NCBI GenBank assembly: GCA_903836515.1
Contig: CAILQW010000050.1
Location: 14,861 to 78,860, forward strand
Source: Candidatus Omnitrophota bacterium
Lineage (GTDB): Bacteria; Omnitrophota; Gorgyraeia; Zapsychrales; Fredricksoniimonadaceae
Length of the DNA stretch: 64,000 nucleotides
Direction: 5' to 3'
The stretch's first letter is position 1, and every line of letters starts with the position of its first letter. Made by a program: the position numbers and the translations under genes. Positions 4,694-64,000 of this stretch are shown here, in pieces. The notes beneath the pieces were generated by a model. The model was not told the DNA's origin and ran no database searches. It saw only the letters and a list, made by a program, of their open reading frames with translations.

Positions 4694-5011
4694 TCAAAGT
4701 TCCAGAAAAGAAAGCACAGGCGTGTGCGGCGTGATGCTGACAATGACAGGCTTGAGGCCTTGCAGGTCATGGCGCAGGGAGGCCAGTTGCTGTGGGGTGA
4801 TGGTGAAAGTAACACCGTGACCGGCGCTGTCGGTATTCATGGCTTGCCCGTTGAGCGTCCATGTCATGGGGTTTGGGTTTAGGTCAATACCGCTGAAAAT
4901 CATTCCCGGCGCTTCCGACGAGGACGTGCGGCACACGCTGTCGCTGGCGAGTGCGGTTTCATTGAATATCGAGACAGCCGGTGAGGCCAATTTCAAGCGC
5001 TTGAGCCACAA
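4694..5011 (-). CDS. Mini-protein consisting essentially of the GIDL C-terminal module (family copy A)
   Basis: C-terminal 66 aa SGIDLNPNPMTW...TPQQLASLRHDLQGLKPVIVSITPHTPVLSFLEL aligns with the C-termini of four other ORFs in the window. The track start appears to be a non-ATG codon. An internal ATG (MIFSGIDL) would give 69 aa. Confidence 0.4.
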   Translation of the reverse strand: MWLKRLKLASPAVSIFNETALASDSVCRTSSSEAPGMIFSGIDLNPNPMTWTLNGQAMNTDSAGHGVTFTITPQQLASLRHDLQGLKPVIVSITPHTPVLSFLEL

Positions 5012-31070: not shown

Positions 31071-31679
31071 AAGACGGGACTGTTGTTGTCATCGGGCGGA
31101 TGTCAATGATGACCGGCGTGATGCCCGCGGCGTCCTGCAGGCGCTGGATCATGGCGGGGTCGAATTTATACTGGACAATTTCCCCATTATTATTCTTGAC
31201 GTTTATTCTGTCGCGGGTCAGGTCGATGCCGCCGGTGCCAGATTGAGACGCAGAATCGGGCAGAACAACATCGGGTATCCGGTTAACTGGTGATTTTAAC
31301 GAATTATCCCGAGGGGTGTTATTGTGTTTCGTTAGAAAATAATATAATTTCTCTTCATTCTTTACTGTAAAATCCCGTTTCAGCAGATCCTTTCTAAAAT
31401 ATCCGTTTAGAAATTCCTGGCCGGATGTTAAATCCGTAATATCAAACCCAGGTTTAATAAACGGTTGCAGCAATCAAAAAAATAATTGTTCAGATCCCCA
31501 TGGCTTAACCTTTTATAGAAACTGATGAGCATTTTTCTCAAGTCATCAATAACAAAGAAGGCGAATTCATCTCTGGACATACGACCTGCTGCGATACGGG
31601 CATCTTGAAAGTCGACTAATTTTAGACGGCTGATATATCCATCAGGGATTCTAAATTGTCCAAGTAGATTGATGTTCAT
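31051..31679 (-). pseudogene. Frameshifted small GIDL-module protein (family copy D, paralog of 62921..63598)
   Basis: Two overlapping ORFs in different frames on the same strand (31428..31679 and 31051..31473) reconstruct a ~210-aa protein. It ends in GGIDLTRDRINV...FDPAMIQRLQDAAGITPVIIDIRPM. The locus is AT-rich. Confidence 0.4.
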
Positions 31680-45820: not shown

Positions 45821-46234
45821 CTATTCGACCCTCACAGCCGCGATATCGAGTTTGGATATGCCCAGGGCGGTCATGATATCCAGGACATCAACGACGTCCT
45901 TGAAGCGGGTCTGCTGGTCGGATCTCAGGTAAACGTTCAGGCCGGGGCTGGTTTTCTTCATGGCAGCGATTTTGCTCTTTAGCTCCTTGTGCGTCACGAC
46001 TTTTTCATCAAGGTAAACCATTCCTTCGCTCGTGATTGTCACAACCGTCTGCTTGACCTTGCCGGCATCCCGGGGTTCGGCACTCTTTGATTCCGGGAGC
46101 TTGACCTTGATGTTGGACTGATAAATAAGGGGGGTTGCCAGCATGAAAATGACCAGGAGAACCAAAATCACATCCGTGAACGGCGTGATATTGATCTCGG
46201 CGACGAGCGGGCGTGTGCGCGGACGCCTTTTCAT
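45821..46234 (-). CDS. exbD: Biopolymer transport protein ExbD/TolR
   Basis: 137 aa. EINITPFTDVILVLLVIFM TM, then the periplasmic domain. Confidence 0.8.
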   Translation of the reverse strand: MKRRPRTRPLVAEINITPFTDVILVLLVIFMLATPLIYQSNIKVKLPESKSAEPRDAGKVKQTVVTITSEGMVYLDEKVVTHKELKSKIAAMKKTSPGLNVYLRSDQQTRFKDVVDVLDIMTALGISKLDIAAVRVE

Positions 46235-46849
46235 GACCTGGCTCCGATCAAAAGATCGCGTGCTTCGGAAGCCGCGATGTCCATGTCCATCACAAAACGT
46301 TCAATCCGGCTTTGGCAGTAATTGAAGGCGATGACCGCAGGGACCGCCACACAAAGCCCGACGGCCGTGCAGATCAGCGCTTCCGCGATGCCATTGATAA
46401 CAACCCCCATGCCGCCAGCCCCCTGCTGGGCGATATCATGGAAGGCGCGGATGATTCCCAGGACCGTGCCAAAAAGGCCGATATAGACCGCGGTACTGCC
46501 GATGGTGCCGATGATGGCCGTGCGGCGTTCCAGTTTGATGGTTTCGATGGTGATCTGACGTTCCATGGCGTTGTCCATGACTTCGCCCGTACTGTTACGC
46601 AAGGCCAGCCCGGTACCGACAACAGCGGCAAAAGGGGTCTCGGTGTGCTGGCAGATCTCCTGGGCCTTGGTAAAATTGCCCCGGCGGATCTGTCCGGCAA
46701 TATCCATCATGAAAATGTCGCGCGTGACACGGGATGACCTGTAATAAAGAATGGCCCGTTCGATGATAACCGCCAGGGAAAGCGTGGAAAGGAACATCAG
46801 GAGGATGACAGTCCCCCCGCCCAGTTGCAGCATTTGCCAGAGTGACATG
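46231..46849 (-). CDS. exbB: MotA/TolQ/ExbB proton-channel protein
   Basis: Three TM. Conserved C-terminal channel region (AIIGTIGSTAVYIGLFGTVLGIIRAF ... GIAEALICTAVGL). The ATG at 46849 is preferred over the track start at 47016. Confidence 0.8.
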
Positions 46850-46957
46850 AAAAACAACCTCCCCAGGAAGATCCTGTTACCGTTTGGATGGAAAAATACG
46901 TATGAAACTGTAGCAAAAACAAGTCGCGCCGTCAATGGGCAGGCGGAAAAAGAGAGA

Positions 46958-49106
46958 TTATGGGTTAACGGGGACCGATGGCGGGACAGCCGTTCCCGGG
47001 CCAAACAACGCATCAATCTTGACCGGACGCGGGCTTCCTACCGGAACTGGAAGAAAGCCTCGCAGGTCGCGTTGAAGGTGCAGGATTTCGGCGGGGTTAA
47101 ATTGAGAGCTGCCGTCAGGGCTCATCCCCATCACGTGAAGATAATGCCCCTGCCCCAGGTCAATACCGCCGTTGGGGGAAGCAGTGTCGATCGAAGTGGA
47201 TTCTTCACTGTTCCGGAAATGCTTCTTTAGAGCGAGCCAATGCCTGTTCAAAATATCGTTGTATATCTTCATCTTTGTTTTTGTGGTTTGATCATTCAAG
47301 TCCGTATGACGCGCGATGATCCTCATGAAAAGAGGAAAGAAAGGAAGATCGAGCCATAAGGAGATGAATGCCCCGCCTGCCGTGGCGGCGCAGATCTTGC
47401 CCACAGATGAATATTTTTTCCACCATGTCTTCATCCTGTCCGTGTTCCAGGGGGGCATATCATCCGTATCAGAACCGGATGTTTGCGCTTGATCCCTGAG
47501 CGTCCGGTAAGGCCGTGGTGGTACGAAACGTTTTGGCCATGGTTGAGCTCTGGATTTTTTTTGAAAGGCGTCCGCACGTGTTTTTTGTAACATATAAACT
47601 TCGGACATAAACATTTCAATTTTTTTGATTTTTTTAATATTATCACCCATAGACTCTTTGTGGGTCCTGAGAGCGTTAAACAGGTTGTTTAGCGCCACCT
47701 GATTGAACGTGTGATAATTGCGATGCAGGGCATCAGCCCCATTTGTGGATTTGAGTTTTTCCAGGAAATAACCGTAAGTATTGAGGCGTTGGTGGGTTTG
47801 TTGAGCCGCATCGTATTCCTGGTCGCTGTCTGTGGACATATCAAATTTTAGCTGGTAGGTAATTGTTTTATAATCTTCATTAAATCTTATGCCGTAGTTG
47901 TTATTGGCGTTATCAGGGTGCAGGGCTTTGTGAAAGGCAAGCCCGCCCGCGAAATATTTGCGTGCAAGAGGTTGTTGGGTCGTGCGGTCAAATTCTTCTT
48001 TCACGTAGTTGTAAACACCTTTCCGGTACGCCTGAAGGTATTGCGCGTATACCTGTTCCCTGGCGTTCTTCTGCGCGATTTCAAAGGCCGACTACCTTAT
48101 TTGTGCCTATATAAATCCGATTGATCAGACTGTTCTTTAAGCTGTTTTTGTACCACCCCGCCAGGATCAGGGAGTAAAAAATTTGCCGTAAGGGGGCAAA
48201 GTTTTTACCTTCGTTGACTTCTTTTTCGAGGATGGGGATGACGATGTCACGCAGGACATCCTTGATGATTATATTACGGGAGGACACAAGGTCCTCCCCT
48301 ACGCTCATGGAATTAACATTTTGTAGTGTAGGGGCGGACCTTGTATCCGCCCGTGCCATGTCCTTCTGTTGGGACATGGCTACGTCCCCGGCAGGAGCCG
48401 AGGATTCCGCCATGTCCTTCTGTTGGGACATGGCTACATAATCGCTTTCCAGCATTACCTTCAAATGGGCTTTTGTCACGAAGGCGTTGCCGTCGTGTTG
48501 ATATACTTCGGCTTCATCGGGGGTGATCCAGACCTTGTTGAAAGTATCCACCGGGATATCGGCATGGCCGAATTTCGCGTATACCTGGTTGTAAATGGTA
48601 TCCCAAAACTTCCGCCCAAGATCATTTTCCGGGTACATCAAGGTTGACATCACCTGCTTAAGGATGTAATCCTGCGCCAGCATGTCGCGCCCGGCATCGG
48701 TATGACTTAACGGATCGGCCATGATCCTGTTTTTTTCGGCGGGCGACAGGTTAACCCACAACTCGTTCTCCGGGACGGCCAGTCCTGCCAGGAAATATTT
48801 TACAAGACGGGTGGTCTCATCGGTCAACGTTTGCTCTTTCAGATCAGCCGTCCCGTTATCCACAATAAAATCGATCAGGAGAGGATCTTCAGGATGGAGG
48901 GACACACCCTTGAGCAGGACCGGCGTAACAGGTTCTGAAAGCCCGATCATCTCCCCCGGCTGGGGCAGATTAAAAACAGACTGGGCGTACCCCTGAGGAG
49001 GGATAATTATGTTAAAACAGAATATTGTTAGAATAATATATGTTTTAAGTCGTTGCATGGGTAGACCAATTGCCGGGAATTTTTGTAAAAAGTATAATAT
49101 ATACAA
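46958..49106 (-). pseudogene. Frameshifted paralog (~716 aa) of the N-terminal region of the giant protein, ending in the GIDL module (family copy E)
   Basis: ORFs 48081..49106 and 46958..48004 (same strand, different frames) are collinear with giant-protein residues ~40-400 (QPGEMIGLSEPV.. vs QPGAMVGLSPAY..; LHPEDPLLIDFIVD vs LHPEDPFRFDFMVH; DMLAQDYILKQV vs DLLAQDYLLKQL; KVWITPDEAEVY vs KVWIIPDRASVY; ARKYFAGG vs PRKYFSGG). The frame switch lies at about 48004-48081. The C-terminus is GGIDLGQG...FNPAEILHLQRDLRGFLPVPV. Confidence 0.55.
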
Positions 49107-53360: not shown

Positions 53361-54733
53361 ACCACCTCTCCTGGATCAACGGTGTTTATATCATCAGCTG
53401 TATCCTGTTCGCGTTCGGGCTGAAATTTCTTGGATCCCCTGAAACCGCCCGCCGCGGCAACTGGCTTTCCGCCATGGGTATGCTCTTGGCTGTGCTGGCG
53501 ACCCTGACGTCGCGTGAGATCATTTCTTTCCAGTGGATCCTGATCGGGGGTATTATCGGCGCATCGTTGGGGACCCTGGTGGCCTTGCGCGCGGGCATGA
53601 CCCAGATGCCCGAGATGGTGGCCTTGCTCCATGGATTCGGGGCCTTGGCCAGCGTTTTTGTGGACTGGAGCGCATACCACAACCACACGCCGGATAACGC
53701 GATTGTCGTCACCGCGATCTATCTGTCGATCCTCATCGGCGGGGTGACGTTCACCGGAAGTCTTGTGGCCTGGGGTAAGCTGAGCGAACGGCTTCCCGGG
53801 AAACCACTGCTCTTCCCCGGCCAGCAAATGATCAGCATCCTGACCGTTGCAGCCATAGGTCTGCTGGCGATCCCGTTCTTCCTGAATCCTTCTGTTTATC
53901 CGGTATTTTTATGGATCCTGGGCCTGTCCCTCGTCCTTGGCGTCCTCTTGGTGATCCCTATCGGCGGGGCTGATATGCCGGTGGTGATCTCGGTCCTTAA
54001 CAGTTATTCCGGGCTTGTGGCGTGCACCACAGGGTTTGTGATCAACAATATCCTTCTGATTGTCGTCGGGGCTCTTGTCGGGGCCAACGGGATCATCTTA
54101 AGCTACATCATGTGCAAGGCCATGAACCGTTCGCTCAACAATGTACTTTTTGGCGCCTTCACCGCACGCGCAAAGAAAGCCGCAGGAACGGCCAAGGGTG
54201 AAGTCAAACCCATCAGCCCCCAGGATGCATTCCTCATCCTGGAGTCCGCACGTTCGGTCGTTATTGCCCCCGGCTACGGTCTTGCGGTCGCCCAGGCCCA
54301 GCACGCGGTTCGCGAATTGGGAGAACTTCTGGAAAAGAACGGGGCTGATGTGAAATACGCCATCCATCCGGTGGCCGGCCGCATGCCCGGGCACATGAAT
54401 GTCCTTTTGGCCGAAGCCAATGTCCCCTACGACCAGCTGGTGGAAATGGAACACATCAATCCGCTGATGGACAGCGTTGATGTGGCCATTGTGATCGGGG
54501 CCAACGATACCGTCAACCCCGCCGCGATCCACGACAAGACCTCCCCCATTTACGGCATGCCCATCATTGAAACATTCCGGGCCAGGACTGTGTTTGTGAT
54601 CAAGCGTTCCATGGCGTCGGGTTTTGCGGGGATCGAGAATGAACTTTTCTATTATGACAATACGCGCATGATCTTCGGCGATGCCAAGGATGTGGTGCAG
54701 AAGCTTGTGGCGGAATTCAAGGCCGGGAACTGA
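53357..54733 (+). CDS. pntB: NAD(P) transhydrogenase beta subunit
   Basis: 458 aa. N-terminal membrane domain plus C-terminal NADP(H)-binding dIII (VIAPGYGLAVAQAQH ... GANDTVNP). Confidence 0.9.
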   Translation: MNHLSWINGVYIISCILFAFGLKFLGSPETARRGNWLSAMGMLLAVLATLTSREIISFQWILIGGIIGASLGTLVALRAGMTQMPEMVALLHGFGALASVFVDWSAYHNHTPDNAIVVTAIYLSILIGGVTFTGSLVAWGKLSERLPGKPLLFPGQQMISILTVAAIGLLAIPFFLNPSVYPVFLWILGLSLVLGVLLVIPIGGADMPVVISVLNSYSGLVACTTGFVINNILLIVVGALVGANGIILSYIMCKAMNRSLNNVLFGAFTARAKKAAGTAKGEVKPISPQDAFLILESARSVVIAPGYGLAVAQAQHAVRELGELLEKNGADVKYAIHPVAGRMPGHMNVLLAEANVPYDQLVEMEHINPLMDSVDVAIVIGANDTVNPAAIHDKTSPIYGMPIIETFRARTVFVIKRSMASGFAGIENELFYYDNTRMIFGDAKDVVQKLVAEFKAGN

Positions 54734-57700
54734 CCGGCAGGACCGCATCTGCGATCAGGGCGGGAAGATCGGTCACAGGCTGTATATCCATGATCACAGG
54801 GATCAGCCCCGGGATCGGCCCCTCCGGCAGCGGACGGCGGTATTCCGGGAACCGGATGCAGATCTCATCCCCGCCGGTGTGCAGTTCGGTATTACGCGGA
54901 TTCAGATCGATACCACCTTTATCAAGCGGCTGTATTGAATTCCCATCCAGAGCCGGCTTGGCAGAATAATCCTTCTTTTCCCCTGGGATCAAACCAAGTT
55001 CTTGGCCCATTTCAATGATGTGCTCTGCCATATAGATTTTTCGATGATAATGCCGCTGTGTTGTTGAATGTTCTGAAGAAATCCAATAGCTCAGATCATC
55101 ATAGCCATCTTCATCCATTCCAACAAAACCCTGACTCACATAATGCTTGCCTAAGGCATACGCCAGATGTGTTATGCCGCCTTCAACCGTACCAACAATA
55201 TCAGCGGCTTCCATTAAATAAAGGATGCCCCGTTCATGCGGTTGCGGCACAGGCGCAAGCATGATGGAATTCAAATATTGCTCAGGAATAAAATTCATGA
55301 TAGATTTTTCATCTTCAGAACGGCTGAATCCCCACCCTGCTAAATGATTCATGTTCGGCATAAGAATGACAAAGAATCCCGATTCAATCAACTGTTGAAT
55401 TTGCCGGGCCCCGTAGCGAAACCCGAATTCCGATAATCCCTTGGCTGTCAACTCCCCGCCGAACGGATTCAAAAACACAACCGGTCTTTTTTCGATATTT
55501 TTCTCAGCCAATTCGGCCAAGAGTCTTATTTTCTGATCGGCCTCAGAACCTGAAACTGTCGTCATATAATGATCGGTTACTCCCTGGTTGTTACCTGACC
55601 TGTGTGGAAGGCCGAGTTGCTTCAAAAGATTAAGGGTGGGGGCATATTGATTGTCATCGTTTATCGGGCTCAACACGTCATTTCCCACACGGATGATATC
55701 ATAACCTTTGCGTCCGTAGGCGTAGGGGGAATGAATATAAATAGCAGGTTGCTGTCTTTTAATGACATCCTGGATCGCATCTTCCGCCCTTTGTGAAAGA
55801 ATTTTTCTGTCAGCGTCATAACGGTGAATGATCATGTCAAACTTTACAGCGTCAAACATAAAAGGAGGTGTCACTTTTATCCGCGGATGATTATACAACT
55901 GCGTTTGTTTCGTATAAACATAGATCTCAAGCTCCGGGTTGTAATCCAGCAGTGCTTGAACGAGTGATCCATTGCGTATGATTTCATCTCCCAGGCCTTC
56001 ATCCAGATTATGGACCAGCAGGACATTTTTCTTGCCGGTCTTAAGAATTTCCTCAACTTTCTTATGAATTGCGGTCTTCTCGTTTTTCCCAAGGTCCGGT
56101 TTTTTCTCATTAATCAAAGGAATGAGTTGTTCAAGCCCTTGTCGAAAATCATTCAAAGATCCGGCCTCATGTATGTTATTTTTAATCAGTAAATTCCAAA
56201 AAGTAGCAACACGTCCGTGAACACGTGAACTCATTTCAGCAAAAATCCTCAACTGCTCAAGTGATAGTGATGCCCCATGAAACCCAATCCTCCCTTCTAG
56301 TTGGTAATAGATAAAGTTGTGCGGTGAACTATCCAGATTGAGCAGGATCGCCTTGATCGAAGGCCAATATTCAAAGAAACTTTCGCCGTAATGTTCCTTT
56401 AAGTCCATAAAACTCCCGTTAATTAAATAACCCATGCTTGTCGCATCCGGTTCCTTAAACATGAGCTTAAAGATGTCTCCAATTTCATCAAAAAACCTGT
56501 GACCAAAAATTTTCTTAACTTCAGGCAAAAACTTAAAATATTGTCCGGGACGCCGACCCGCCGATAAGATCGCGAATTCTTTTAAATCATCCCAGTATTG
56601 CGGGATTTTATCGTCAAACACATCAACGGCGATTTCCCATATTCCCCAAACGTCACGACCCAGATCATTCTCGGCCGCCATGGTCCAATACATATTTTCC
56701 AATTCATCCAGAATACGCCGCATATCCTCACGGGAATGGATTAAATACGGTTTTAACGTCTTCAGTGAAGATAAGGCCAACTCAGCACCGACATTGGGTT
56801 GACGAGCATCGTTTTCTATCGAGCTTTGAATCAGCTTGAGTCCTAATTCAGGAAAATACTCCAGGTATTCCTCATTGGAATAACCATCAAACGGCATCCC
56901 GCCATTTGTCGTAAAAAACGGTTCTCTCCATTGCCGCACGCCAGCAACAGTGTCAACAACCTCATAGCCATAACGTTTAATAATATCTTCTATCAGCTGT
57001 CTTTTATCATCTGGCAGTTTTTTATATAACGATTGGGCATAAAATTCATTCTTAAAAGAGCTCTCAGACCTGTTATTAACACCTCGTTTAGCCCGTAAAG
57101 CCAATATTATTTCCTCTGCCGGCATTGATACCGGAACTCCACCCAAACCATCAATAAAACGGTTCCCGTTCATCGCGCCATCTTTCTTCTCTCCATCTTT
57201 CCTGGACGATCTTGATCCGGCGGTTTCATTCTTCGCGGCATGGAATAGATAGAGATTCGGATAAAATGCCGCATCATTTGCGATGCGAAGGATACCCTCT
57301 ACTGGATCTCCAACCAGATTGTTTTTCTTCAAAAATTCTTTGATCCGCATTTCATAACTTGCTTCCGGGATATCATCAATAAGACCAGAACTCGGACCAA
57401 TAATTATCCGCCAGAGAGCCAGAGAATTTTTATTCTGCGCCAACTTTTCTTTAAGTTCATTAAACAACATAATGAATTCACCAGGTGTTATATAATAAGC
57501 CCGGCTGTTATAGGAGAATCCCCTACGACGAAGATACCACGCAAGGAATTCTTCATTATAAACGGCCGGTGCGTTAAACAGATACACATCGGCATCGCCC
57601 ATCTCGCGAGACTGCTCAACCTCACCGCCTATGGGAATCTGTCCGGTGTCCCGCGCATAGCGCACATTCCACGCGGTCAACAGATTATGTGCCGGATTGA

Positions 57701-60700
57701 TATCATAGTATGTGACCCTGCGTGCCCCTGACAACAATGCCAGCAGGACATCGATCCCGGTTCCGGGCCCCTGGACACGAACAGTCTTGTTTTTAAATAT
57801 CCCGGCATTCTCAATAACAGCTTTCTGAAAATCTGCACTGCGATTATGGCGCGCCGAGAATATCTTCTCATGTGGAAGAGCATCAAGCATAACTTCTTGA
57901 AGGAATCCATCCGTCTTCTGTTCTGTGTAAGGCTTTACTGTCAGAAGAGAAAGCTTGTATCCTTGATCCCTTCCTTCCACGTTCCGGGACGCATTAATAT
58001 CTTGTGTATTTTCCGGAGATAAGATCAGTCCCGACCAGTCTTTAAAAGTTGCCAGTTTTGTCTTATTGATGACATCTTGCGCGTTTTTCAATATCCAATC
58101 CATTTTTCCAGGGTAAGACCATAAGAAAGATATATCAAAAAGAATATTTTTATCTTGGATCGGATCCTCCACAACCAGCGCCATGGGCAAATTGTGGAGA
58201 GTGTCAAATTTCCCACCATAATTCCCTTCTTGGGAATTAAAAGTAATCAGAAAGGCACGTTGGCTGGCCACAGGTCTTTCTGTATCACTAAATGTTCCGA
58301 AAAACGCTTGGCCCGCCTCATTGAGACGGATGGGGATATACCCCCACGCATTGCCATCACTGTCCGTATGAACGTGCGTATACTCCTGCGCCAGCTTCTC
58401 ATAATTCATACCGGGCGTATCCGGGAACTTTGCCATGGAGCTCAAAATCTCCCGGAACATCGGCAGGAACGCATGCTCACCGATGGAATGAATATACTTT
58501 TCCAAGAAATCCCCGGAACGGTCTCTTGAAGGTGGCAATATCATTTCTCCTGATCCCTGATTACCCGTAATAATGGATGCCTTGTCTTCAGCCGCTGTTC
58601 CCGTTGCCTCCATCCTGCTCTGGCCTGGCTGGTTATTAATCCTCTCATCGGCATCATGATTCTGTGTGAACGCCGGATTGTTGCGCGCAAAAGGCTCAAA
58701 AAAGTCCGGATTCTTTGATGCCGCAACCAGAAAATGTCCGGATGACAGGATGTGATGCGCGAGCGCATAATAAAGGGCGGACTGATAGTCCGGCGATGTG
58801 CTTGTCCCGGCTTCCGCCATCACCGCCAACACCGGCTGATCCGATGTCATCAAGTCCAGGAATTCCGTCAGCTGTTTGATGTTGTTTCCAAAGAGGCTCA
58901 GCTCCGGTCGCCGGTACCGGTATTCAAGCGTATCATCGTAATATGCAAATTTTTGAAACACCGGCATTGTCATCTTCTGATTTGGCGCATACCCTGTCGC
59001 CTGAGCGCACAGCAGATTTAAGACAAGTGTCTTCAAGTCTTCGCGTGTTAACGACCCTTCAGGTTCACCGTAAAGCTGAACATGGCGATGGGCATCTATC
59101 AAAAAATCAACCGGCTTGTATTCCTTCCCGGATTTAAGAAAATTCCGCGCTCCCTTAATTTCAACCTCCGGATTTTCATGAAACTGAACCAGTGTCCATT
59201 GCCGTTTCTGAATAAAACGAGCCAACTTTATCAAGGCCCCCATTTTATTTAACTCAAACTTGATATCAATATGCGATTCCTCATCAATCAGATATCCCCG
59301 TACCGCAGCCCTCACGGCCTCCTGTTGTGCCAGGAATCTCAGATAATCCATGCCATTTTTAAAATCTCCTAACCAATGTCGCAGTATCTTTTCAAAATAA
59401 TTGCCGAATTGATTCAAATAAACCGAATCAAAACTCTTCAACGCATCAACCAGATCCTTAACGGCATCTCCCGGCATTAATAGCGTTTTGATCCGATAGG
59501 CGTACATCACACTGGGCATTCCGGGGATATTCATCCCCCACACCCCTGGTTGTCTATCAAGAAAAGCAACAACCTTGTCGATCTGCGCGCGGACAATGTC
59601 CCAGCGTGTTTCATCATAAAGCGACAACGGAGGGACCTTTTGAAAAAGAATTTCATTAATGCGTCTCTGTAAGTCCGCGATCAGAGGGATCACTGTCGGT
59701 AATGGCATGCCCTCTTGCTGTCTGATTTTGTAAATTTCATTGAGCTCTTTATCAATTCCAACTTTCTCCTGCGTAAGATCGCCGCCCAAACTCAAGACCA
59801 TCTCGACCATTTTTACATACGCATCAACAAGAATGAAATAGGAGTCTCTCTTAATATTTCCATCTTCCTTGGTATAAATCATGAATTTTAAAAGTTCATG
59901 ATTAAACCGTGTCCAATCTATGTCACGATCCACACTGGACGTCACTGACAATAAGCCCTGTATCCGCTCCAGGGCTGTTTCTATTTTCTCAATATTGGGG
60001 GCATATTCCGGCGCTCCTAAAAGACCAAACATCTTTTGGCGTTCGAAGATCTCTTGGGGGTCACGGGAAGTTCCCTGTAGAAGGAATTTCTGAATCTCTT
60101 GGCCATAAAACATACCCAAAATATTCATGTCTTCTTTACTCATATCAAAAGGCGATCCACCATTCGATAATTCCATATCGTTGGAAAACATCTTGAATAC
60201 AGGATCATAGGTCAACTCCTTCTCTTTCAACGGGCCGCCAACCGAGGGATGAGAACCTTCTCGTTTTGCCACCGGGACAAGCCAGCCTCTTTCTGGAAAG
60301 AATCCGTAGAAATTCCCGGTTCTTTTCTTGAGAATTTCCCGTTGCTTTTCAGAATAGGTTTTAAGGGCAATCATTGGCAAAGGACGGATATTCTCCACAG
60401 AACGCTCAACGCCATCATGATAGTTTTGCGCGGTTTGCACGACGTCTTCCGGAAGACCAAGATCTCGTGCCACCTCAAGTGCATGCGAATCATCCGGCCC
60501 CGGGTGCATCTGATGGGTCTGAACGATCTGGCCATCATGCTGGTCAATCTTAAAGTGATAGACCGCTGTAGTTTTAGGATCATTAAGCCTGGAATCGACA
60601 AAAAGGCTATTATGCGTCGCCACCCTCACCCTAGCTCCGCGTTTAAGCAATTCATTTGTAAGCAGTTGTAATTTTAAGGTATGTTCCTCGGGCGACAACC

Positions 60701-62918
60701 TTGAGAATGGTTCATCAAGACAGACCAGCGTTTCATGCGTCACGCCGGATTCTTCTGGAAAAAGTTTGGCAATTTCAATACGTGAACTTTCCCGATCATC
60801 TACGAAGGCTAATTTCTTATAGATTCGGAAGTTTCCATCTGCAAAGGGACCATATCCAAATGTCTGGACCATCTTTTGGATCAGATAGTCGCGTTTGAGC
60901 CCGGTAAAGGTCTTGCCGGACATATTTGCTCCCCGGTAGATCACCAGCGGCTTATCCTCGGGTGAATCATTAAGGACCTGACCTTCTTTTGGTGCGTACG
61001 GCATCCAGGCGTCCTTGTATCCAATATGCTCATCGAGATTGAATGTTGCCGGGTGAAATCCCTCCCGGCGCGCCCACCATGTAAAATGCAGAAAAACATC
61101 AATCCGTTCCACAGCCGCAGAGATCGCCTCGAGTTCTTTACGGCGTCCCGCCAGAGCCTTGTAATCCTTTTCTCGGGCATAGGATAAAAGTGTTGCAATA
61201 TCAGATATATGTGATCCCGTGAGCAAGGCGTCGGCTTCATCCGCCAATTCGGTTAATAAAGGATCCTCCAGTTTTTTGACATCCTGAAGGAAAGCCGCAA
61301 CATCCTCAGCAACCTTAGTGAAGCGCGAAAAAACAGGATGATTGACGTCAATATCCGTGGCATTCTGAACACCGATCACAATGAGCGGCTCGGTGGCCCC
61401 AGGCAAACGAAGAAACAAATTTATGCACCAACCGATCTTGCCTTGGAGTCCCTGACTTTTTTCCACCAACAGGGCCTGTTTATCATCATTCAGCTTTAAA
61501 ATACATTTCACCGCAGCCTGCCGCTTCAAGATATCCGCCTTGTTAATTAATGGCGCGTCAATCAGATCGCCGATCAGCCTGTGATGTGTCCAAAAGTTTT
61601 CTTCCTCAGGTTTTTGTAAACTGTCACGGATCTGCGCTGTGGCGGTAGGAAACAGCGCCCCAGACTTTTGCGAATCCGTTGGTTGTTTAGAATTTTCTTG
61701 TGAGGCATCATTGGATCGTTGCGACGCAATATCGGCGCGTGTCCTAACAATAACAGAATCGGTTGCTTTTTTACGCATCTTGTCTGGCAGTTGCAACTCA
61801 TTGCTGATTTGTTCATACTTCTCCACCACGCCGCCGGAAAAATATTTGCGCGGGATCATGGTCCTGGAGCCCTCGTCATAATCCTCTTTAATGAAATTAT
61901 AAACACCTTGTTGGAACGCCTTAAGATACTGCTGATAAATCTTCTGGTTGATCTGTTTATCCTGGGTATCTACACCTGCGGTCCTGTTGTGATCGGTGTA
62001 AATATCCTGCAGAACACTGCCCGCCACATGGCGCTTGTACCAGGTTGCGAGGATCACGGCGTTTGAGATCTGGCGCAGATGCGCGAACGACTTGCCGGTA
62101 TTGACCTCCCGCTCGATCTCGGGGATGATGATCTCCCGGATAATTTCTTTGGCGATATCGCTCAGCGGCGTCAGATCCTCAGGGCGTGCGTCCCCCAGCC
62201 CGTGCCGGGTGTGGCTCTGATTGGCCTCCAGGGCCAGATAATCGTTTTCCAGCATAACCTTATGGTGACATCCGGTCACAAAGACCGATGTTCCGCTGAC
62301 ATAGACCGACGCACGGTCCGGAATAATCCACACCTTGTGAAAGGTCTCCATCGGGATCTCGTTTGTCCCGTATTTCTCCCGGGTTTTATCCTTTACCCGC
62401 TTCCAGAACGTACGCCCCAATTCTTTCTCGGGATACATCAGGCTGGCGGTCAACTGCTTGAGGAGATAATCCTGCGCCAAAAGGTCCCGCCCTATCTCGG
62501 TTGCACCGAATCCCTGCGGAATAATGCGGTCTTTCTCATACGGAGAAAGGTTGACCCACATCTCGTCTTCAGGCACTGTCATGGCCGCAAAGAAATATTT
62601 GATCAGGCGGCTGGATTCATCCCGCAGACTATCCCCTTTAAGATTGTCATCCCCGGGATGCACCATGAAATCAAACCGGAACGGATCCTCAGGATGGAGT
62701 TTCATGCCGATCATCAGGACAGGATCATAGGCGGGGCTTAAACCAACCATGGCGCCGGGCTGCGGCAGGCCGGGGATCGTTTCAACCGCGGGCACAATCT
62801 GCTGTGCCTGCGCCTGGGACAATCCGGATGAAAAAACAGACTGACAGATAAAGGAGATCAAGACCGTCAGGATCAGGGTTTTCTCAAGAAATTTGTTTTT
62901 TAAATGAAAATTGTGCAT
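54717..62918 (-). CDS. Giant (2733 aa) multidomain protein: signal-like N-terminus + conserved N-domain + MutS-type ABC ATPase + class-I MTase-like + GT9 heptosyltransferase-like + C-terminal GIDL module (family copy B)
   Basis: Continuous ORF. MutS domain V match at about aa 600-840 (RGANMSGKTF Walker A; LVCLDEPFSRLSPEEHT Walker B region; ATHN). MTase motif I VRVQGPGTGIDVLLAL plus YYDINP plus DVYLFNAPAV at about aa 1710-1790. GT9-like LLVHNLDEGLGDEII ... VVFLNPFGGE ... VEGGITHLAYALGKHYVS at about aa 2295-2600. C-terminus is GGIDLNPRNTELH...IPGLIPVIMDIQPV. GC is visibly lower than in neighbouring genes. Confidence 0.7.
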   Translation of the reverse strand: MHNFHLKNKFLEKTLILTVLISFICQSVFSSGLSQAQAQQIVPAVETIPGLPQPGAMVGLSPAYDPVLMIGMKLHPEDPFRFDFMVHPGDDNLKGDSLRDESSRLIKYFFAAMTVPEDEMWVNLSPYEKDRIIPQGFGATEIGRDLLAQDYLLKQLTASLMYPEKELGRTFWKRVKDKTREKYGTNEIPMETFHKVWIIPDRASVYVSGTSVFVTGCHHKVMLENDYLALEANQSHTRHGLGDARPEDLTPLSDIAKEIIREIIIPEIEREVNTGKSFAHLRQISNAVILATWYKRHVAGSVLQDIYTDHNRTAGVDTQDKQINQKIYQQYLKAFQQGVYNFIKEDYDEGSRTMIPRKYFSGGVVEKYEQISNELQLPDKMRKKATDSVIVRTRADIASQRSNDASQENSKQPTDSQKSGALFPTATAQIRDSLQKPEEENFWTHHRLIGDLIDAPLINKADILKRQAAVKCILKLNDDKQALLVEKSQGLQGKIGWCINLFLRLPGATEPLIVIGVQNATDIDVNHPVFSRFTKVAEDVAAFLQDVKKLEDPLLTELADEADALLTGSHISDIATLLSYAREKDYKALAGRRKELEAISAAVERIDVFLHFTWWARREGFHPATFNLDEHIGYKDAWMPYAPKEGQVLNDSPEDKPLVIYRGANMSGKTFTGLKRDYLIQKMVQTFGYGPFADGNFRIYKKLAFVDDRESSRIEIAKLFPEESGVTHETLVCLDEPFSRLSPEEHTLKLQLLTNELLKRGARVRVATHNSLFVDSRLNDPKTTAVYHFKIDQHDGQIVQTHQMHPGPDDSHALEVARDLGLPEDVVQTAQNYHDGVERSVENIRPLPMIALKTYSEKQREILKKRTGNFYGFFPERGWLVPVAKREGSHPSVGGPLKEKELTYDPVFKMFSNDMELSNGGSPFDMSKEDMNILGMFYGQEIQKFLLQGTSRDPQEIFERQKMFGLLGAPEYAPNIEKIETALERIQGLLSVTSSVDRDIDWTRFNHELLKFMIYTKEDGNIKRDSYFILVDAYVKMVEMVLSLGGDLTQEKVGIDKELNEIYKIRQQEGMPLPTVIPLIADLQRRINEILFQKVPPLSLYDETRWDIVRAQIDKVVAFLDRQPGVWGMNIPGMPSVMYAYRIKTLLMPGDAVKDLVDALKSFDSVYLNQFGNYFEKILRHWLGDFKNGMDYLRFLAQQEAVRAAVRGYLIDEESHIDIKFELNKMGALIKLARFIQKRQWTLVQFHENPEVEIKGARNFLKSGKEYKPVDFLIDAHRHVQLYGEPEGSLTREDLKTLVLNLLCAQATGYAPNQKMTMPVFQKFAYYDDTLEYRYRRPELSLFGNNIKQLTEFLDLMTSDQPVLAVMAEAGTSTSPDYQSALYYALAHHILSSGHFLVAASKNPDFFEPFARNNPAFTQNHDADERINNQPGQSRMEATGTAAEDKASIITGNQGSGEMILPPSRDRSGDFLEKYIHSIGEHAFLPMFREILSSMAKFPDTPGMNYEKLAQEYTHVHTDSDGNAWGYIPIRLNEAGQAFFGTFSDTERPVASQRAFLITFNSQEGNYGGKFDTLHNLPMALVVEDPIQDKNILFDISFLWSYPGKMDWILKNAQDVINKTKLATFKDWSGLILSPENTQDINASRNVEGRDQGYKLSLLTVKPYTEQKTDGFLQEVMLDALPHEKIFSARHNRSADFQKAVIENAGIFKNKTVRVQGPGTGIDVLLALLSGARRVTYYDINPAHNLLTAWNVRYARDTGQIPIGGEVEQSREMGDADVYLFNAPAVYNEEFLAWYLRRRGFSYNSRAYYITPGEFIMLFNELKEKLAQNKNSLALWRIIIGPSSGLIDDIPEASYEMRIKEFLKKNNLVGDPVEGILRIANDAAFYPNLYLFHAAKNETAGSRSSRKDGEKKDGAMNGNRFIDGLGGVPVSMPAEEIILALRAKRGVNNRSESSFKNEFYAQSLYKKLPDDKRQLIEDIIKRYGYEVVDTVAGVRQWREPFFTTNGGMPFDGYSNEEYLEYFPELGLKLIQSSIENDARQPNVGAELALSSLKTLKPYLIHSREDMRRILDELENMYWTMAAENDLGRDVWGIWEIAVDVFDDKIPQYWDDLKEFAILSAGRRPGQYFKFLPEVKKIFGHRFFDEIGDIFKLMFKEPDATSMGYLINGSFMDLKEHYGESFFEYWPSIKAILLNLDSSPHNFIYYQLEGRIGFHGASLSLEQLRIFAEMSSRVHGRVATFWNLLIKNNIHEAGSLNDFRQGLEQLIPLINEKKPDLGKNEKTAIHKKVEEILKTGKKNVLLVHNLDEGLGDEIIRNGSLVQALLDYNPELEIYVYTKQTQLYNHPRIKVTPPFMFDAVKFDMIIHRYDADRKILSQRAEDAIQDVIKRQQPAIYIHSPYAYGRKGYDIIRVGNDVLSPINDDNQYAPTLNLLKQLGLPHRSGNNQGVTDHYMTTVSGSEADQKIRLLAELAEKNIEKRPVVFLNPFGGELTAKGLSEFGFRYGARQIQQLIESGFFVILMPNMNHLAGWGFSRSEDEKSIMNFIPEQYLNSIMLAPVPQPHERGILYLMEAADIVGTVEGGITHLAYALGKHYVSQGFVGMDEDGYDDLSYWISSEHSTTQRHYHRKIYMAEHIIEMGQELGLIPGEKKDYSAKPALDGNSIQPLDKGGIDLNPRNTELHTGGDEICIRFPEYRRPLPEGPIPGLIPVIMDIQPVTDLPALIADAVLPVSSRP

Positions 62919-62920
62919 CG

Positions 62921-63598
62921 CTAACCGCCTTTTAAGGCAACAGGCTGGATACCCAGGAAGCTCGACAGGTTATCCATGGGCTGAATATTGATGATCACAG
63001 GCTCAAGCCCTGGCGCGGACTGATAACGCTCAAGAACAGCCGGATCCATTCTGAACACCAGACCAGGATTGTCGGATATTGTCTCCAGGCCTAACCGTTC
63101 GGGGGTAAGGTCAATACCGCCGGTATTATCCATTGTCACGGGAGTCCCTTGGAAAGCCACGACATTAAGGGGGAAATATTGGAAGAATGCTGCATTCTTC
63201 CTCGCCAAGGACTGGAACTCAGGCGAAAGCTTATAAAATGACCCCGGAAAAACATCTTCCCCATGATTCCCAGAGCTTTCGCTGTCAGTTACTTTCGAAG
63301 GAATGTCGTTTGTCCCCGCCCATCCTAATTTCAACGGGATTAACATTGCCCGCCCCTGGCTATCAACCTCTAGTTCCAGGTCGAATTCTGACGGGATAGG
63401 CATATCCTTTAATTGTGCATATAAGACACGACGCCCCTCCGGCGTCATGTTGTCAAGACGCCCCTTGAGAGGATCTGAAGAAAAGAAGAATTTGAACAAA
63501 GGGTCCAGCGCAGTGCCAGGCTTAATGCCCCTGATATCACTTTTATTGACAGATACTCCTATAGGATGCTGATGCGCCTCTTTCAGTATCATGTCCAT
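62921..63598 (-). CDS. 225-aa GIDL-module protein immediately upstream of, and abutting, the giant gene (family copy C)
   Basis: Stop codon TAG at 62921..62923 is 2 nt from the giant gene ATG (62916..62918). C-terminal 67 aa GGIDLTPERLGLET...FRMDPAVLERYQSAPGLEPVIINIQPM share the module. Confidence 0.55.
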   Translation of the reverse strand: MDMILKEAHQHPIGVSVNKSDIRGIKPGTALDPLFKFFFSSDPLKGRLDNMTPEGRRVLYAQLKDMPIPSEFDLELEVDSQGRAMLIPLKLGWAGTNDIPSKVTDSESSGNHGEDVFPGSFYKLSPEFQSLARKNAAFFQYFPLNVVAFQGTPVTMDNTGGIDLTPERLGLETISDNPGLVFRMDPAVLERYQSAPGLEPVIINIQPMDNLSSFLGIQPVALKGG

Positions 63599-63757
63599 TA
63601 AGTCATCACTTAAACCCTTCGTGGAATGTAACGGAATGAATCTGGCGGTTTTGAAATACTCAAGAAATAATTTAAATCCTGATGAATCGAGTCTGTCATA
63701 AAATTTGTGTAAATGGTCAACGGCGGTACACTATTACGGTCAACGAAAGGACCAGCC

Positions 63758-64000
63758 ATGGCCATACGCAAAGAGATTATAGAAGAATTGATGGCGGAGT
63801 ACAAGAAGCCGGATGATTTGATCGGTGAAGGCGGATTGATCCGGCAATTGAGCAAGGCTCTTTTGGAACAAGCCCTGAAGGGCGAAATGACCCATCACCT
63901 GGGTTATGAAAAGAATCATAGCCGGCCGGAAGGCGCCGAGAACGCCCGTAACGGCCAGACGAAGAAAAAAATCATTACCCGGGACGGCCCGATTGATATT
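63758..64000 (+). mobile_element. IS256-family transposase gene, 5' part (runs off window end)
   Basis: Translation MAIRKEIIEELMAEYKKPDDLIGEGGLIRQLSKALLEQALKGEMTHHLGYEKNHSRPEGAENARNGQTKKKI matches the conserved N-terminal region of IS256/mutator-family transposases (..LLGxxGLLKQLTKxLLExALEAEMTEHLGYEKHD..NxRNGxxxKTL..). Not in the ORF track because no stop lies within the window. Confidence 0.7.

What the first reader, a model, noticed from the sequence alone, without database searches (positions are those of the whole stretch)
62921..63124. Recurrent ~60-aa extreme C-terminal GIDL module shared by five otherwise different ORFs in one 64-kb window
Five ORFs on four loci end with the same module. 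Copy A (4694..5011) ends SGIDLNPNPMTWTLNGQAMNTDSAGHGVTFTITPQQLASLRHDLQGLKPVIVSITPHTPV. Copy B (giant C-terminus) ends GGIDLNPRNTELHTGGDEICIRFPEYRRPLPEGPIPGLIPVIMDIQPVTD. Copy C (this ORF) ends GGIDLTPERLGLETISDNPGLVFRMDPAVLERYQSAPGLEPVIINIQPMDN. Copy D (31051..31473) ends GGIDLTRDRINVKNNNGEIVQYKFDPAMIQRLQDAAGITPVIIDIRPMTT. Copy E (46958..48004) ends GGIDLGQGHYLHVMGMSPDGSSQFNPAEILHLQRDLRGFLPVPVGSPRPVKID. Consensus is G-G-I-D-L-x-P, then 10-18 aa, then F-x-P-x-x-(L/I)-x-x-L-(Q/H), then 3-4 aa, then G-(L/I)-x-P-V-I-x-x-I-x-P-(M/V), then a short hydrophobic tail. In every case the module is at the very C-terminus. It occurs on proteins from ~70 aa to 2733 aa. This behaviour is typical of a C-terminal sorting/secretion signal (by analogy with T9SS CTD, PEP-CTERM and similar tags) or of a docking/oligomerisation module. 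I do not recognise it as a named domain. The secretion-signal idea is inference only.
Basis: seen in the sequence. Interest (0 to 1): 0.85.

Follow-up and report, generated by a model that had tools for sequence, protein, structure and literature searches.

The report
Omnitrophota-specific conserved C-terminal tag domain
The repeated ~60-residue "GGIDL" tail is real: it is an undescribed protein domain, apparently confined to the little-known phylum Omnitrophota, that sits at the very end of thousands of otherwise unrelated proteins and most likely acts as a shared address or docking tag.

Summary
A profile built only from sequences outside the window finds four copies in the window's six-frame ORFs with strong scores (D 9e-28, C 2e-25, A 6e-11, B 6e-8). 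The fifth, E, is marginal (0.006), and there is no sixth.

The module is not local to this window. A five-sequence profile hits 2,700 50%-identity cluster representatives, always at the extreme C-terminus. In species-representative genomes, 88 of 88 copies end 0-19 residues before the stop codon. Most of the 24 source MAGs are labelled Candidatus Omnitrophota, and single MAGs give up to 8 loci.

No Pfam, NCBIfam, PDB or literature match was found.

- Long carriers also share a ~330-residue N-terminal domain behind a Sec-type signal peptide. This includes giant B and frameshifted gene E.
- The middle "cargo" is highly variable (kinases, hexokinase, transketolase, lipases, methyltransferases).
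- Short carriers lack signal peptides.
- The module has no membrane helix, so PEP-CTERM or sortase analogies fail. T9SS and T1SS analogies fit only partly.

Best reading: a phylum-specific C-terminal targeting or docking domain. Its partner was not identified, so the function remains inferred.

The parts
62924..63127 (-). Copy C module (NTGGIDL...ALKGG). It is the C-terminus of ORF 62921..63598 (225 aa, no signal peptide).
   Evidence: Independent profile E = 1.9e-25. The identical protein is found on 15 public contigs.
54720..54923 (-). Copy B module (DKGGIDLNPRN...VSSRP), a divergent 'IRFP' subtype. It is the C-terminus of the 2,733-aa ORF 54717..62918.
   Evidence: Profile E = 5.9e-8. The same subtype occurs in P0168. 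The divergent type is homologous to the canonical one: hhalign probability 97.8%, E = 1e-12.
61824..62918 (-). Signal peptide plus the conserved N-terminal domain (aa 1-365) of giant B. This is the second 'bookend' that accompanies the module in long proteins.
   Evidence: phmmer E about 1e-100 to the N-termini of 40 long module proteins. 1,232 homologs; of those that carry a name, most read 'hypothetical protein [Ca. Omnitrophota/Omnitrophica]'. AlphaFold2 pLDDT is 80-97 for this domain in homolog P0168.
31054..31239 (-). Copy D module (GTGGIDLTRD...MGVTE), the 'TPVIIDI..PMTTTVP' subtype. It is the C-terminus of ORF 31051..31473.
   Evidence: Profile E = 9.1e-28. dN/dS = 0.14 against the ortholog in L085.
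4697..4900 (-). Copy A module (IFSGIDL...SFLEL). It is degenerate (SGIDL, PVIVSITPH) and lies in a stop-to-stop ORF of at most 107 codons between the malic-enzyme and response-regulator genes.
   Evidence: Profile E = 5.7e-11. Public gene calls annotate only the last 57 aa (P0003).
46961..47176 (-). Copy E module (PNGGIDLGQGH...PVNP). It is degenerate (PVPVGSPRP) and is the C-terminus of ORF 46958..48004.
   Evidence: The profile hit is only marginal, E = 0.0058. Pairwise z is 0-4.
48081..49106 (-). ORF for the signal peptide and N-terminal domain that belongs with copy E. A one-base frameshift at the TTT run 48082-48084 separates it from ORF E. Together they form a family member of about 690 aa, probably a pseudogene.
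   Evidence: tblastn of giant aa 1-316 gives 40.5% identity and E = 1e-82, and the match continues in another frame into ORF E. The junction was read directly.

Best explanation
The GGIDL module is a real, autonomous C-terminal domain. It has a conserved core of about 58-65 residues, usually preceded by a [DN]-x-A-[MQ] linker motif. It appears specific to the phylum Candidatus Omnitrophota.

It is the constant tail of a large paralogous cassette family with three architectures:
- Full-length members: Sec-type signal peptide, conserved ~330-residue N-domain, hypervariable enzyme cargo, linker, GGIDL domain.
- Members with cargo plus GGIDL domain only.
- Members that are little more than the domain itself.

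Proposed mechanism (inferred, not shown): the invariant tail is a recognition tag that binds one common partner. It would thereby direct many unrelated proteins per genome to the same destination. My favoured destination is export to, or assembly at, the cell surface or a target cell, in a lineage thought to be predatory or host-dependent.

Shown: homology, strict C-terminal position, phyletic restriction, multi-copy status, cargo diversity, purifying selection, pairing with the N-domain.
Inferred: that it is a tag, and what it targets.
For: - Independent-profile hits in the window.
- 2,700 representatives at E <= 1e-3 and 550 at E <= 1e-10, with the top 150 all C-terminal.
- 88 of 88 copies end 0-19 aa before the stop in GTDB genome loci from 24 MAGs, most of them labelled Ca. 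Omnitrophota, with up to 8 loci per MAG from two strict patterns.
- The window's PntB clusters at >= 90% identity with an Omnitrophota MAG protein.
- Cargo is highly diverse: HATPase_c, transketolase, hexokinase, Pkinase, GDSL lipase, trypsin, ART-PolyVal, methyltransferases, GT2 and a DnaJ J-domain.
- The module is far better conserved than what it is attached to. For copy D, dN/dS is 0.14, while the cargo just upstream of the linker is not alignable at DNA level with a relative that is 75% identical across the module and the downstream gene.
- 17 of 19 closed long ORFs with the module also carry the N-domain. The only closed N-domain ORF without a module is overlapped by a module ORF.
- N-domain proteins have Sec-type signal peptides in 96 of 98 cases.
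- Genes are dispersed with no fixed neighbour, as for substrates of other tag-based systems.
- The [DN]xA[MQ] linker motif is enriched 9-fold.
Against: - No partner, receptor or processing enzyme was identified.
- No experimental localisation data were found.
- Short module-only proteins lack signal peptides (1 of 81) and include a J-domain protein. That is awkward for any two-step, Sec-dependent export model.
- The cargo is mostly cytoplasm-type, ATP-dependent enzymes.
- The isolated module is predicted with low confidence (pLDDT 59), so no fold-based inference is possible.
- Three of the five window copies (A, E, possibly D or C) may be remnants or disrupted genes.
Confidence: 0.45

Rival explanations
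1. Bookend docking. The C-terminal module binds the conserved N-domain, either in cis (closing the protein around its cargo) or in trans (head-to-tail chains, or small module-only proteins docking on N-domain proteins). The two ends would then form one structural unit, and the module would be an assembly element, not a transport signal.
For: - The N-domain and module co-occur almost obligatorily in long proteins.
- In the AlphaFold2 model of full-length P0168, the GGIDM + hairpin segment (621-650) reaches pLDDT 78-90. Its flanks are at 30-44, and the only confidently folded body is the N-domain.
- The equivalent segment of the isolated copy C module scores only 52-60.
- Module genes often lie in tandem with N-domain genes. 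For example, C and B are separated by 2 nt.
Against: - Coordinates and PAE were not available, so contact between the two ends was never observed.
- N-domain proteins are predicted to be exported, while module-only proteins lack signal peptides. Trans-docking would therefore need both in one compartment.
- B has its own module, so C is not needed to complement it.
- hhalign finds no relationship between the module and any part of the N-domain.
Confidence: 0.25
2. Autonomous functional end-domain. The module itself binds a small ligand, a cell-envelope polymer or a protease or chaperone (for example a regulatory domain, anchor or degron). It would confer the same property on many enzymes in whatever compartment they are in.
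For: - It occurs on proteins both with and without signal peptides, including a J-domain protein.
- Invariant residues (G-G-I-D, D-P, N-A-P-G, P-V-I-I-x-I-x-P) could form a binding site.
- No linked machinery was found.
Against: - Ligand-binding or anchor domains are rarely restricted to the last residues of a protein, yet here there is no complete internal copy in 182 proteins.
- There is no similarity to any known binding domain by HMM or PDB profile search.
- The monomer model has low confidence.
Confidence: 0.15
3. Not a biological module. The resemblance would be chance or compositional, or a repeated DNA or mobile-element sequence that happens to be read in frame.
For: Copy E alone is only marginally significant. 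An IS256/Mutator-family transposase lies next to copy C.
Against: - Profile E-values down to 1e-27 using a profile that excludes the window's own sequences.
- 2,700 database representatives.
- dN/dS = 0.14.
- No DNA-level repeat beyond 13-26 nt.
- No hits in 2.9 million viral contigs.
Confidence: 0.01

Closest known systems
Type IX secretion C-terminal domain (T9SS CTD, TIGR04183/TIGR04131, Bacteroidota)
   Same: It is a conserved domain at the extreme C-terminus of many unrelated, dispersed, multi-copy cargo proteins in one phylum. Cargo with the N-domain also has Sec signal peptides, as T9SS cargo does.
   Different: - No HMM match.
- The core is shorter (about 60 aa against 70-100 aa).
- No confident Ig-like beta-sandwich is predicted.
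- Many carriers lack any signal peptide.
- The phylum is different.
- The second conserved N-terminal domain has no T9SS counterpart.
Type I secretion substrates of the LapA/giant-adhesin type (conserved N-terminal retention module, variable middle, C-terminal signal)
   Same: The three-part layout matches: conserved N-terminal domain, variable middle, and an essential sequence in the last ~60 residues. Carriers without signal peptides would also be compatible.
   Different: - No RTX GGxGxD repeats (0 of 303 proteins).
- T1SS signals are poorly conserved in sequence, whereas this module is nearly invariant.
- N-domain carriers have cleavable-looking Sec signal peptides, which T1SS substrates lack.
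- No adjacent ABC, MFP or OMP genes.
PEP-CTERM/exosortase, LPXTG/sortase and GlyGly-CTERM/rhombosortase sorting signals
   Same: These are also C-terminal tags shared by many paralogous and unrelated proteins, with the machinery encoded elsewhere.
   Different: Those signals are a short motif plus a transmembrane helix plus a basic cluster. The GGIDL module has no membrane-spanning segment and ends in a variable polar tail.
Dockerin-cohesin system (cellulosomes; dockerins also occur in Omnitrophota giant proteins)
   Same: A small, mostly C-terminal module attaches diverse enzymes to a common scaffold. This is the best functional analogy for the docking reading.
   Different: No PF00404 match and no duplicated Ca-binding loop motif. 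No cohesin-like partner was identified, unless the N-domain plays that role.
Polymorphic effector or 'polyvalent' protein architectures (constant trafficking ends, swappable enzymatic modules)
   Same: Constant termini flank hypervariable enzyme or toxin-like cargo (ART-PolyVal, kinases, lipases, proteases). Cargo is replaced at the module boundary between close relatives.
   Different: In known polymorphic toxins the variable toxin is at the C-terminus and the constant part is N-terminal. Here both ends are constant and the variable part is in the middle.

Membership tests
T9SS C-terminal domain | Match to the family profiles (TIGR04183 Por_Secre_tail or TIGR04131 in NCBIfam; Pfam equivalents) | tested here: not met
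   No Pfam or NCBIfam hit for the window copies at E <= 1, nor for canonical members.
T9SS C-terminal domain | Located at the extreme C-terminus of the cargo | tested here: met
T9SS C-terminal domain | All cargo carries an N-terminal Sec signal peptide | tested here: not met
   96 of 98 N-domain carriers have one, but only 1 of 81 short module-only proteins does. This used a hydropathy heuristic, not SignalP.
T9SS C-terminal domain | 70-100-residue Ig-like beta-sandwich fold | tested here: inconclusive
   The AlphaFold2 model of the isolated module has pLDDT 59, with short strands and helices only. The core is about 60 aa.
T9SS C-terminal domain | T9SS machinery genes (PorK/L/M/N, SprA, PorU/V) present in the genome | not testable with these tools
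   Whole genomes could not be scanned. None is present in the window.
Sortase/exosortase/rhombosortase tripartite sorting signals | Signature motif followed by a hydrophobic transmembrane helix and a basic C-terminal cluster | tested here: not met
   The maximum 19-residue Kyte-Doolittle window of the consensus is 0.88. The tails after FLG[LI] are polar and variable.
T1SS C-terminal secretion signal / RTX proteins | RTX nonapeptide repeats (GGxGxD) upstream of the signal | tested here: not met
   0 of 303 collected proteins have three or more GGxGxD repeats.
T1SS C-terminal secretion signal / RTX proteins | Substrates lack N-terminal Sec signal peptides | tested here: not met
   N-domain carriers have signal-peptide-like N-termini in 96 of 98 cases.
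T1SS C-terminal secretion signal / RTX proteins | Linked ABC transporter, MFP and OMP genes | tested here: not met
   No conserved neighbour was found in 79 loci. The window's OEP-MFP operon carries an AcrB-type RND pump, not a T1SS ABC transporter.
Dockerin | Match to PF00404, with duplicated Ca-binding segments | tested here: not met
   No Pfam match in the window copies or in 42 long members.
Unnamed Omnitrophota 'N-domain ... GGIDL' cassette family (defined here) | C-terminal GGIDL module detected by a profile that excludes the window's own sequences | tested here: met
   D 9e-28, C 2e-25, A 6e-11, B 6e-8; E marginal at 0.006.
Unnamed Omnitrophota 'N-domain ... GGIDL' cassette family (defined here) | Signal peptide plus conserved ~330-aa N-domain (full-length class) | tested here: met
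   Met for giant B and for ORF 48081..49106 upstream of E. Absent from A, C and D, which belong to the module-only class.

The most novel reading that the evidence does not exclude
The signal peptide plus N-domain and the GGIDL C-terminal domain together define a previously unrecognised, Omnitrophota-specific protein export, effector-delivery or self-assembly system. It would handle dozens of different cytoplasm-type enzymes per genome (kinases, sugar-metabolising enzymes, ATPases, lipases, ADP-ribosyltransferases). The GGIDL domain would be its recognition signal, and the [DN]xA[MQ] or Gly-Gly site a possible processing point. This would be a new secretion or targeting tag class, possibly linked to the predatory or host-dependent lifestyle and to the giant proteins of this phylum.
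Probability: 0.25. Interest if true: 0.85.

Novelty: new variant of a known kind. Interest (0 to 1): 0.62.

Why it matters
Omnitrophota are uncultivated, ultra-small bacteria, thought to be predatory or host-dependent. Their many large 'hypothetical' proteins are essentially unannotated.

This work adds two things:
- Two undescribed conserved domains, an N-terminal one and this C-terminal one, bracket a hypervariable enzyme cargo in thousands of proteins.
- This gives a simple sequence handle (two profile HMMs) to enumerate a putative cargo or effector repertoire in any Omnitrophota genome.

That in turn makes it possible to look for the partner machinery by phylogenetic profiling. It also allows concrete hypotheses to be tested in the existing 'Ca. 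Velamenicoccus archaeovorus' enrichment proteomes.

If the tag proves to be a secretion or assembly signal, it would be a new class alongside T9SS CTDs and PEP-CTERM. If not, it is still a large new domain family worth a Pfam or NCBIfam entry.

Tried and rejected
- **Pfam and NCBIfam scans** of the five window copies, canonical small members and 42 long members. No family covers the module or the N-domain.
- **PDB sequence-profile searches** with the module and full-length alignments. Nothing was found.
- **AlphaFold2 of the isolated module.** pLDDT is 59, too poor for a fold search.
- **The search for homologous proteins with module profiles.** It returned only 12-22 short proteins, apparently a word-index bias, so it was not useful for distribution.
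- **Conserved neighbour search in 79 loci.** The largest neighbour families occur in at most 7 loci (a TPR protein, an integrase and an ABC ATPase are the top three).
- **TonB-C idea** for copy E, which sits next to ExbB/ExbD. There is no TonB_C match and no general linkage.
- **Kinase-like reading of the region upstream of copy D.** No Pfam support, so dropped.
- **DNA repeat or mobile cassette idea.** Rejected.
- **Viral origin.** No hits in IMG/VR.
- **Literature searches** for the motif strings and for Omnitrophota terminal domains. No description was found.
- **First genome scan with the broad alignment.** It failed for lack of a conserved stretch and was repeated with a narrow canonical alignment.

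Full report

Each has G(G)IDL 59-69 codons before its stop codon. The finding's coordinates (62921..63124) are the stop codon plus the module of copy C (ORF 62921..63598, 225 aa).

Local alignment scores against 500 shuffles give z = 4-22 for every pair among A, B, C and D. Pairs with E are weak (z about 0-4).

To avoid circularity I built a profile from 41 homologs from outside the window and searched all 1,449 six-frame ORFs of the window.

| Copy | E-value |
|---|---|
| D | 9.1e-28 |
| C | 1.9e-25 |
| A | 5.7e-11 |
| B | 5.9e-8 |
| E | 0.0058 |
| next hit (noise) | 0.97 |

So there are four solid copies, one marginal copy and no sixth.

At DNA level the copies share only 13-26 nt around the GGIDL codons. 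This is old, protein-level conservation, not a DNA repeat or a recent gene conversion.

**2. How widespread is it?**

- A profile of the five window copies was searched against 1.84 billion 50%-identity cluster representatives. It found 2,700 proteins at E <= 1e-3 and 550 at E <= 1e-10.
- In all of the best 150 the match ends within a few residues of the C-terminus. These proteins range from 57 to 2,646 aa.
- The canonical sequence is far more regular than the window's copies. Type 1 is GGIDLTPANMNLQTQNAGEGIKFHLDPAMLQQLQNAPGFVPVIINIQPMTDLRQFLGL. Type 2 has ...GVQFKFDPAMIQQLQNASGLTPVIIDIQPMTTTVPMFLGL (copy D is of this type).
- A more divergent type also exists: GGIDFN...ING(I/L)xPVIINITP(I/V)xN(F/I)PLLLG. 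Giant B's 'IRFP' variant and P0168 resemble it. It is homologous by profile-profile comparison (probability 97.8%, E = 1e-12).
- The species-representative genome collection was scanned with two strict peptide patterns. This gave 202 confirmed stretches, and the 79 loci returned come from 24 MAGs.
- Most of those MAGs are labelled Candidatus Omnitrophota. The rest are auto-labelled bins ('uncultured Planctomycetales', one 'Alphaproteobacteria', one 'bacterium'). Single MAGs contribute up to 8 loci.
- In those loci 88 of 88 modules end 0-19 residues before a stop codon.
- Among 182 module proteins there are only two internal hits, both covering just the first ~20 residues.
- No copy was found in 2.9 million viral contigs.

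The window itself is Omnitrophota. Its PntB lies in a >= 90%-identity cluster with MEI8010974.1 from a Ca. Omnitrophota MAG. The same contig is present in several ENA and JGI metagenomes. The rest of the window is ordinary chromosome: aconitases, H+-PPase, PntAB, malic enzyme, chorismate synthase, an RND efflux operon and ExbB/ExbD.

**3.

The first ~365 residues of giant B are a second, even better conserved domain.

- 40 of 68 long module proteins carry it at their N-terminus with E about 1e-100.
- A word-indexed search found 1,232 homologs. Of those that carry a name, most read 'hypothetical protein [Candidatus Omnitrophota/Omnitrophica bacterium]'.
- In the window, ORF 48081..49106 is this domain (40.5% identity to giant B). 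The homology continues in another frame into ORF E.
- The junction is a single extra base in a TTT run at 48082-48084. So E is a frameshifted family member of about 690 aa, probably a pseudogene, which fits its degenerate module.
- In genome loci, 17 of 19 long ORFs closed at both ends that carry the module also carry the N-domain. Of 8 N-domain ORFs without a module, 7 run off the fetched locus. The eighth is overlapped by a module-bearing ORF, another apparent split.
- N-domain proteins begin with K/R plus a hydrophobic stretch in 96 of 98 cases. 82 of 98 have an AxA-like site just before a conserved L-P-x-P-G motif, which together make a Sec-type signal peptide.

Neither end domain is in Pfam-A (2025) or NCBIfam 20.

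**4. The middle is cargo**

Pfam on 42 long members found 39 different families, nearly all in single proteins. They include HATPase_c, transketolase, hexokinase, Ser/Thr kinase, FHA, histidine phosphatase, GDSL lipase, trypsin, GT2, ART-PolyVal, methyltransferases, DndE and a receiver domain. Giant B has a MutS domain-V ATPase.

Module-only proteins are real genes in MAG contigs. Examples are a 233-aa J-domain protein, and 531-, 667- and 748-aa proteins without an N-domain. They lack hydrophobic N-termini: 1 of 81 against 79% for N-domain proteins.

Copy D's module is under purifying selection. Compared with an ortholog in a related organism, dN/dS is 0.14 with dS about 1.1 over 78 codons. 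DNA homology to that organism starts only ~15 codons upstream of GGIDL and then runs on through the downstream gene. The cargo has therefore been replaced at the module boundary.

A [DN]-x-A-[MQ] motif lies 3-12 residues upstream of GGIDL in 54% of members, against 5.8% of control windows. Window copies D and E have D-x-A-S at this position.

**5. What it is not**

- *PEP-CTERM, LPXTG or GlyGly-CTERM type.* The module has no membrane-spanning segment (maximum 19-residue hydropathy 0.88) and no basic tail. That analogy fails.
- *T9SS CTD.* There is no profile match. The module is shorter than T9SS CTDs. Many carriers lack the signal peptide that T9SS cargo requires.
- *T1SS.* There are no RTX repeats (0 of 303). 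N-domain carriers have signal peptides. No ABC, MFP or OMP genes are linked.
- *Dockerin.* No match.

No gene is consistently adjacent in 79 loci. I found no paper describing the module, the N-domain or their motifs, including the two preprints on Omnitrophota giant proteins and the 2023 phylum survey.

**6. Most likely mechanism**

These features are what one expects of a recognition tag bound by one conserved partner:
- strict C-terminal position;
- near-invariance across paralogs and genomes;
- attachment to unrelated, swappable cargo;
- many dispersed copies per genome.

I therefore read the module as a phylum-specific C-terminal targeting or docking domain, with confidence about 0.45. My favoured purpose is export to, or assembly at, the cell surface or a target cell. 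Three things point that way: the full-length class is Sec-exported, the cargo looks effector-like, and the phylum is thought to be predatory or host-dependent. Everything beyond 'conserved C-terminal domain on diverse cargo' is inference.

The main rival (about 0.25) is that the partner is the N-domain itself. Two things support this: the ends co-occur almost obligatorily, and in the full-length AlphaFold2 model the GGIDM-hairpin segment reaches pLDDT 78-90 although it is flanked by disorder. In the isolated copy C module the equivalent segment is at 52-60. I could not inspect coordinates or PAE, so contact is not shown.

A third reading (about 0.15) is an autonomous binding or regulatory end-domain. 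That would fit carriers in both compartments.

**7. Status of the five window copies**

- **B** is an intact full-length member.
- **E** is a frameshifted member with a decayed module.
- **C** is a 225-aa module-only ORF, 2 nt upstream of B and so probably co-transcribed with it. An IS256/Mutator-family transposase lies 115 nt upstream of C. C may be an independent small carrier or the 3' remainder of an IS-disrupted gene.
- **D** is a small carrier with a selected module. Its 5' part overlaps another ORF in a different frame.
- **A** is a short, degenerate, probably vestigial copy.

**8. Verdict**

I rate it a new variant of a known kind, namely a non-homologous C-terminal tag domain with an unusual two-ended cassette architecture. 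Interest is about 0.6.

Noticed in passing
window 61824..62918 (-) and 48081..49106 (-): A second undescribed conserved domain of about 330 aa sits behind a Sec-type signal peptide. Its consensus includes ...LPxPGxMVxLSP...WVNLSPYEKDRIIP...GRDLLAQDYxLKQ...IPRKYFSGG. It has 1,232 or more homologs, nearly all Omnitrophota hypothetical proteins. There is no Pfam, NCBIfam or PDB relative, and the AlphaFold2 model is confident.
   Followed up: partly
window 48082..48084 (TTT run, - strand reading): A single-base frameshift separates the N-domain ORF from ORF E. Removing one T restores ...NKVVGL-EIAQKNAREQVYAQY..., which is colinear with giant B. This is either a pseudogene or an assembly error.
   Followed up: partly
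window 63713..64000 (+): This is the start of an IS256/Mutator-family transposase (PF00872, E = 4e-9), 115 nt upstream of and divergent from copy C. The same IS sits there in other metagenome contigs (L002), where a radical-SAM-like ORF ends at the far IS edge. Copy C may therefore be the tail of an IS-disrupted gene.
   Followed up: partly
3-12 residues upstream of GGIDL in family members; window 31240..31260 (D: PDSASQ) and 47177..47195 (E: IDTASP): A [DN]-x-A-[MQ] linker motif precedes the module in 54% of 138 proteins, against 5.8% of control windows. It could be a hinge or a processing site. It resembles the AxA|Q site that ends the family's own signal peptides.
   Followed up: partly
window 31051..31679 (-) compared with locus L085 1..640: In a relative with 75% nt identity across the module and the downstream radical-SAM/B12 gene, the sequence upstream of the linker is unrelated at DNA level and the ORF is longer (at least 211 aa). 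This indicates cargo replacement at the module boundary. In the window, ORF 31428..31679 overlaps the start of D in another frame, which may be a frameshift.
   Followed up: partly
window 62916..62923: The stop codon of copy C (TAG) and the ATG of giant B are separated by only 2 nt, which suggests co-transcription and translational coupling. Tandem module-bearing genes also occur in other MAGs (L026, L040, L053).
   Followed up: no
window 54717..62918 (-): Giant B (2,733 aa) has one Pfam hit, a MutS domain-V ABC-type ATPase at aa 660-835. By eye it also has SAM-methyltransferase-like and glycosyltransferase-like stretches. These are cytoplasm-type activities in a protein with a signal peptide.
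   Followed up: no
window 45821..47016 (-): ExbB (MotA_ExbB) and ExbD genes follow copy E directly, and the longest ExbB ORF overlaps E's 3' end by 59 nt. No TonB_C-like domain was detected in E, and no such linkage appears in other loci.
   Followed up: partly
one search hit list (names of N-domain homologs): A few N-domain proteins are deposited under Heimdallarchaeota, Nanoarchaeota and Pacearchaeota MAG names. One is named 'RecJ'. These are probably mis-binned contigs or annotation carry-over.
   Followed up: no
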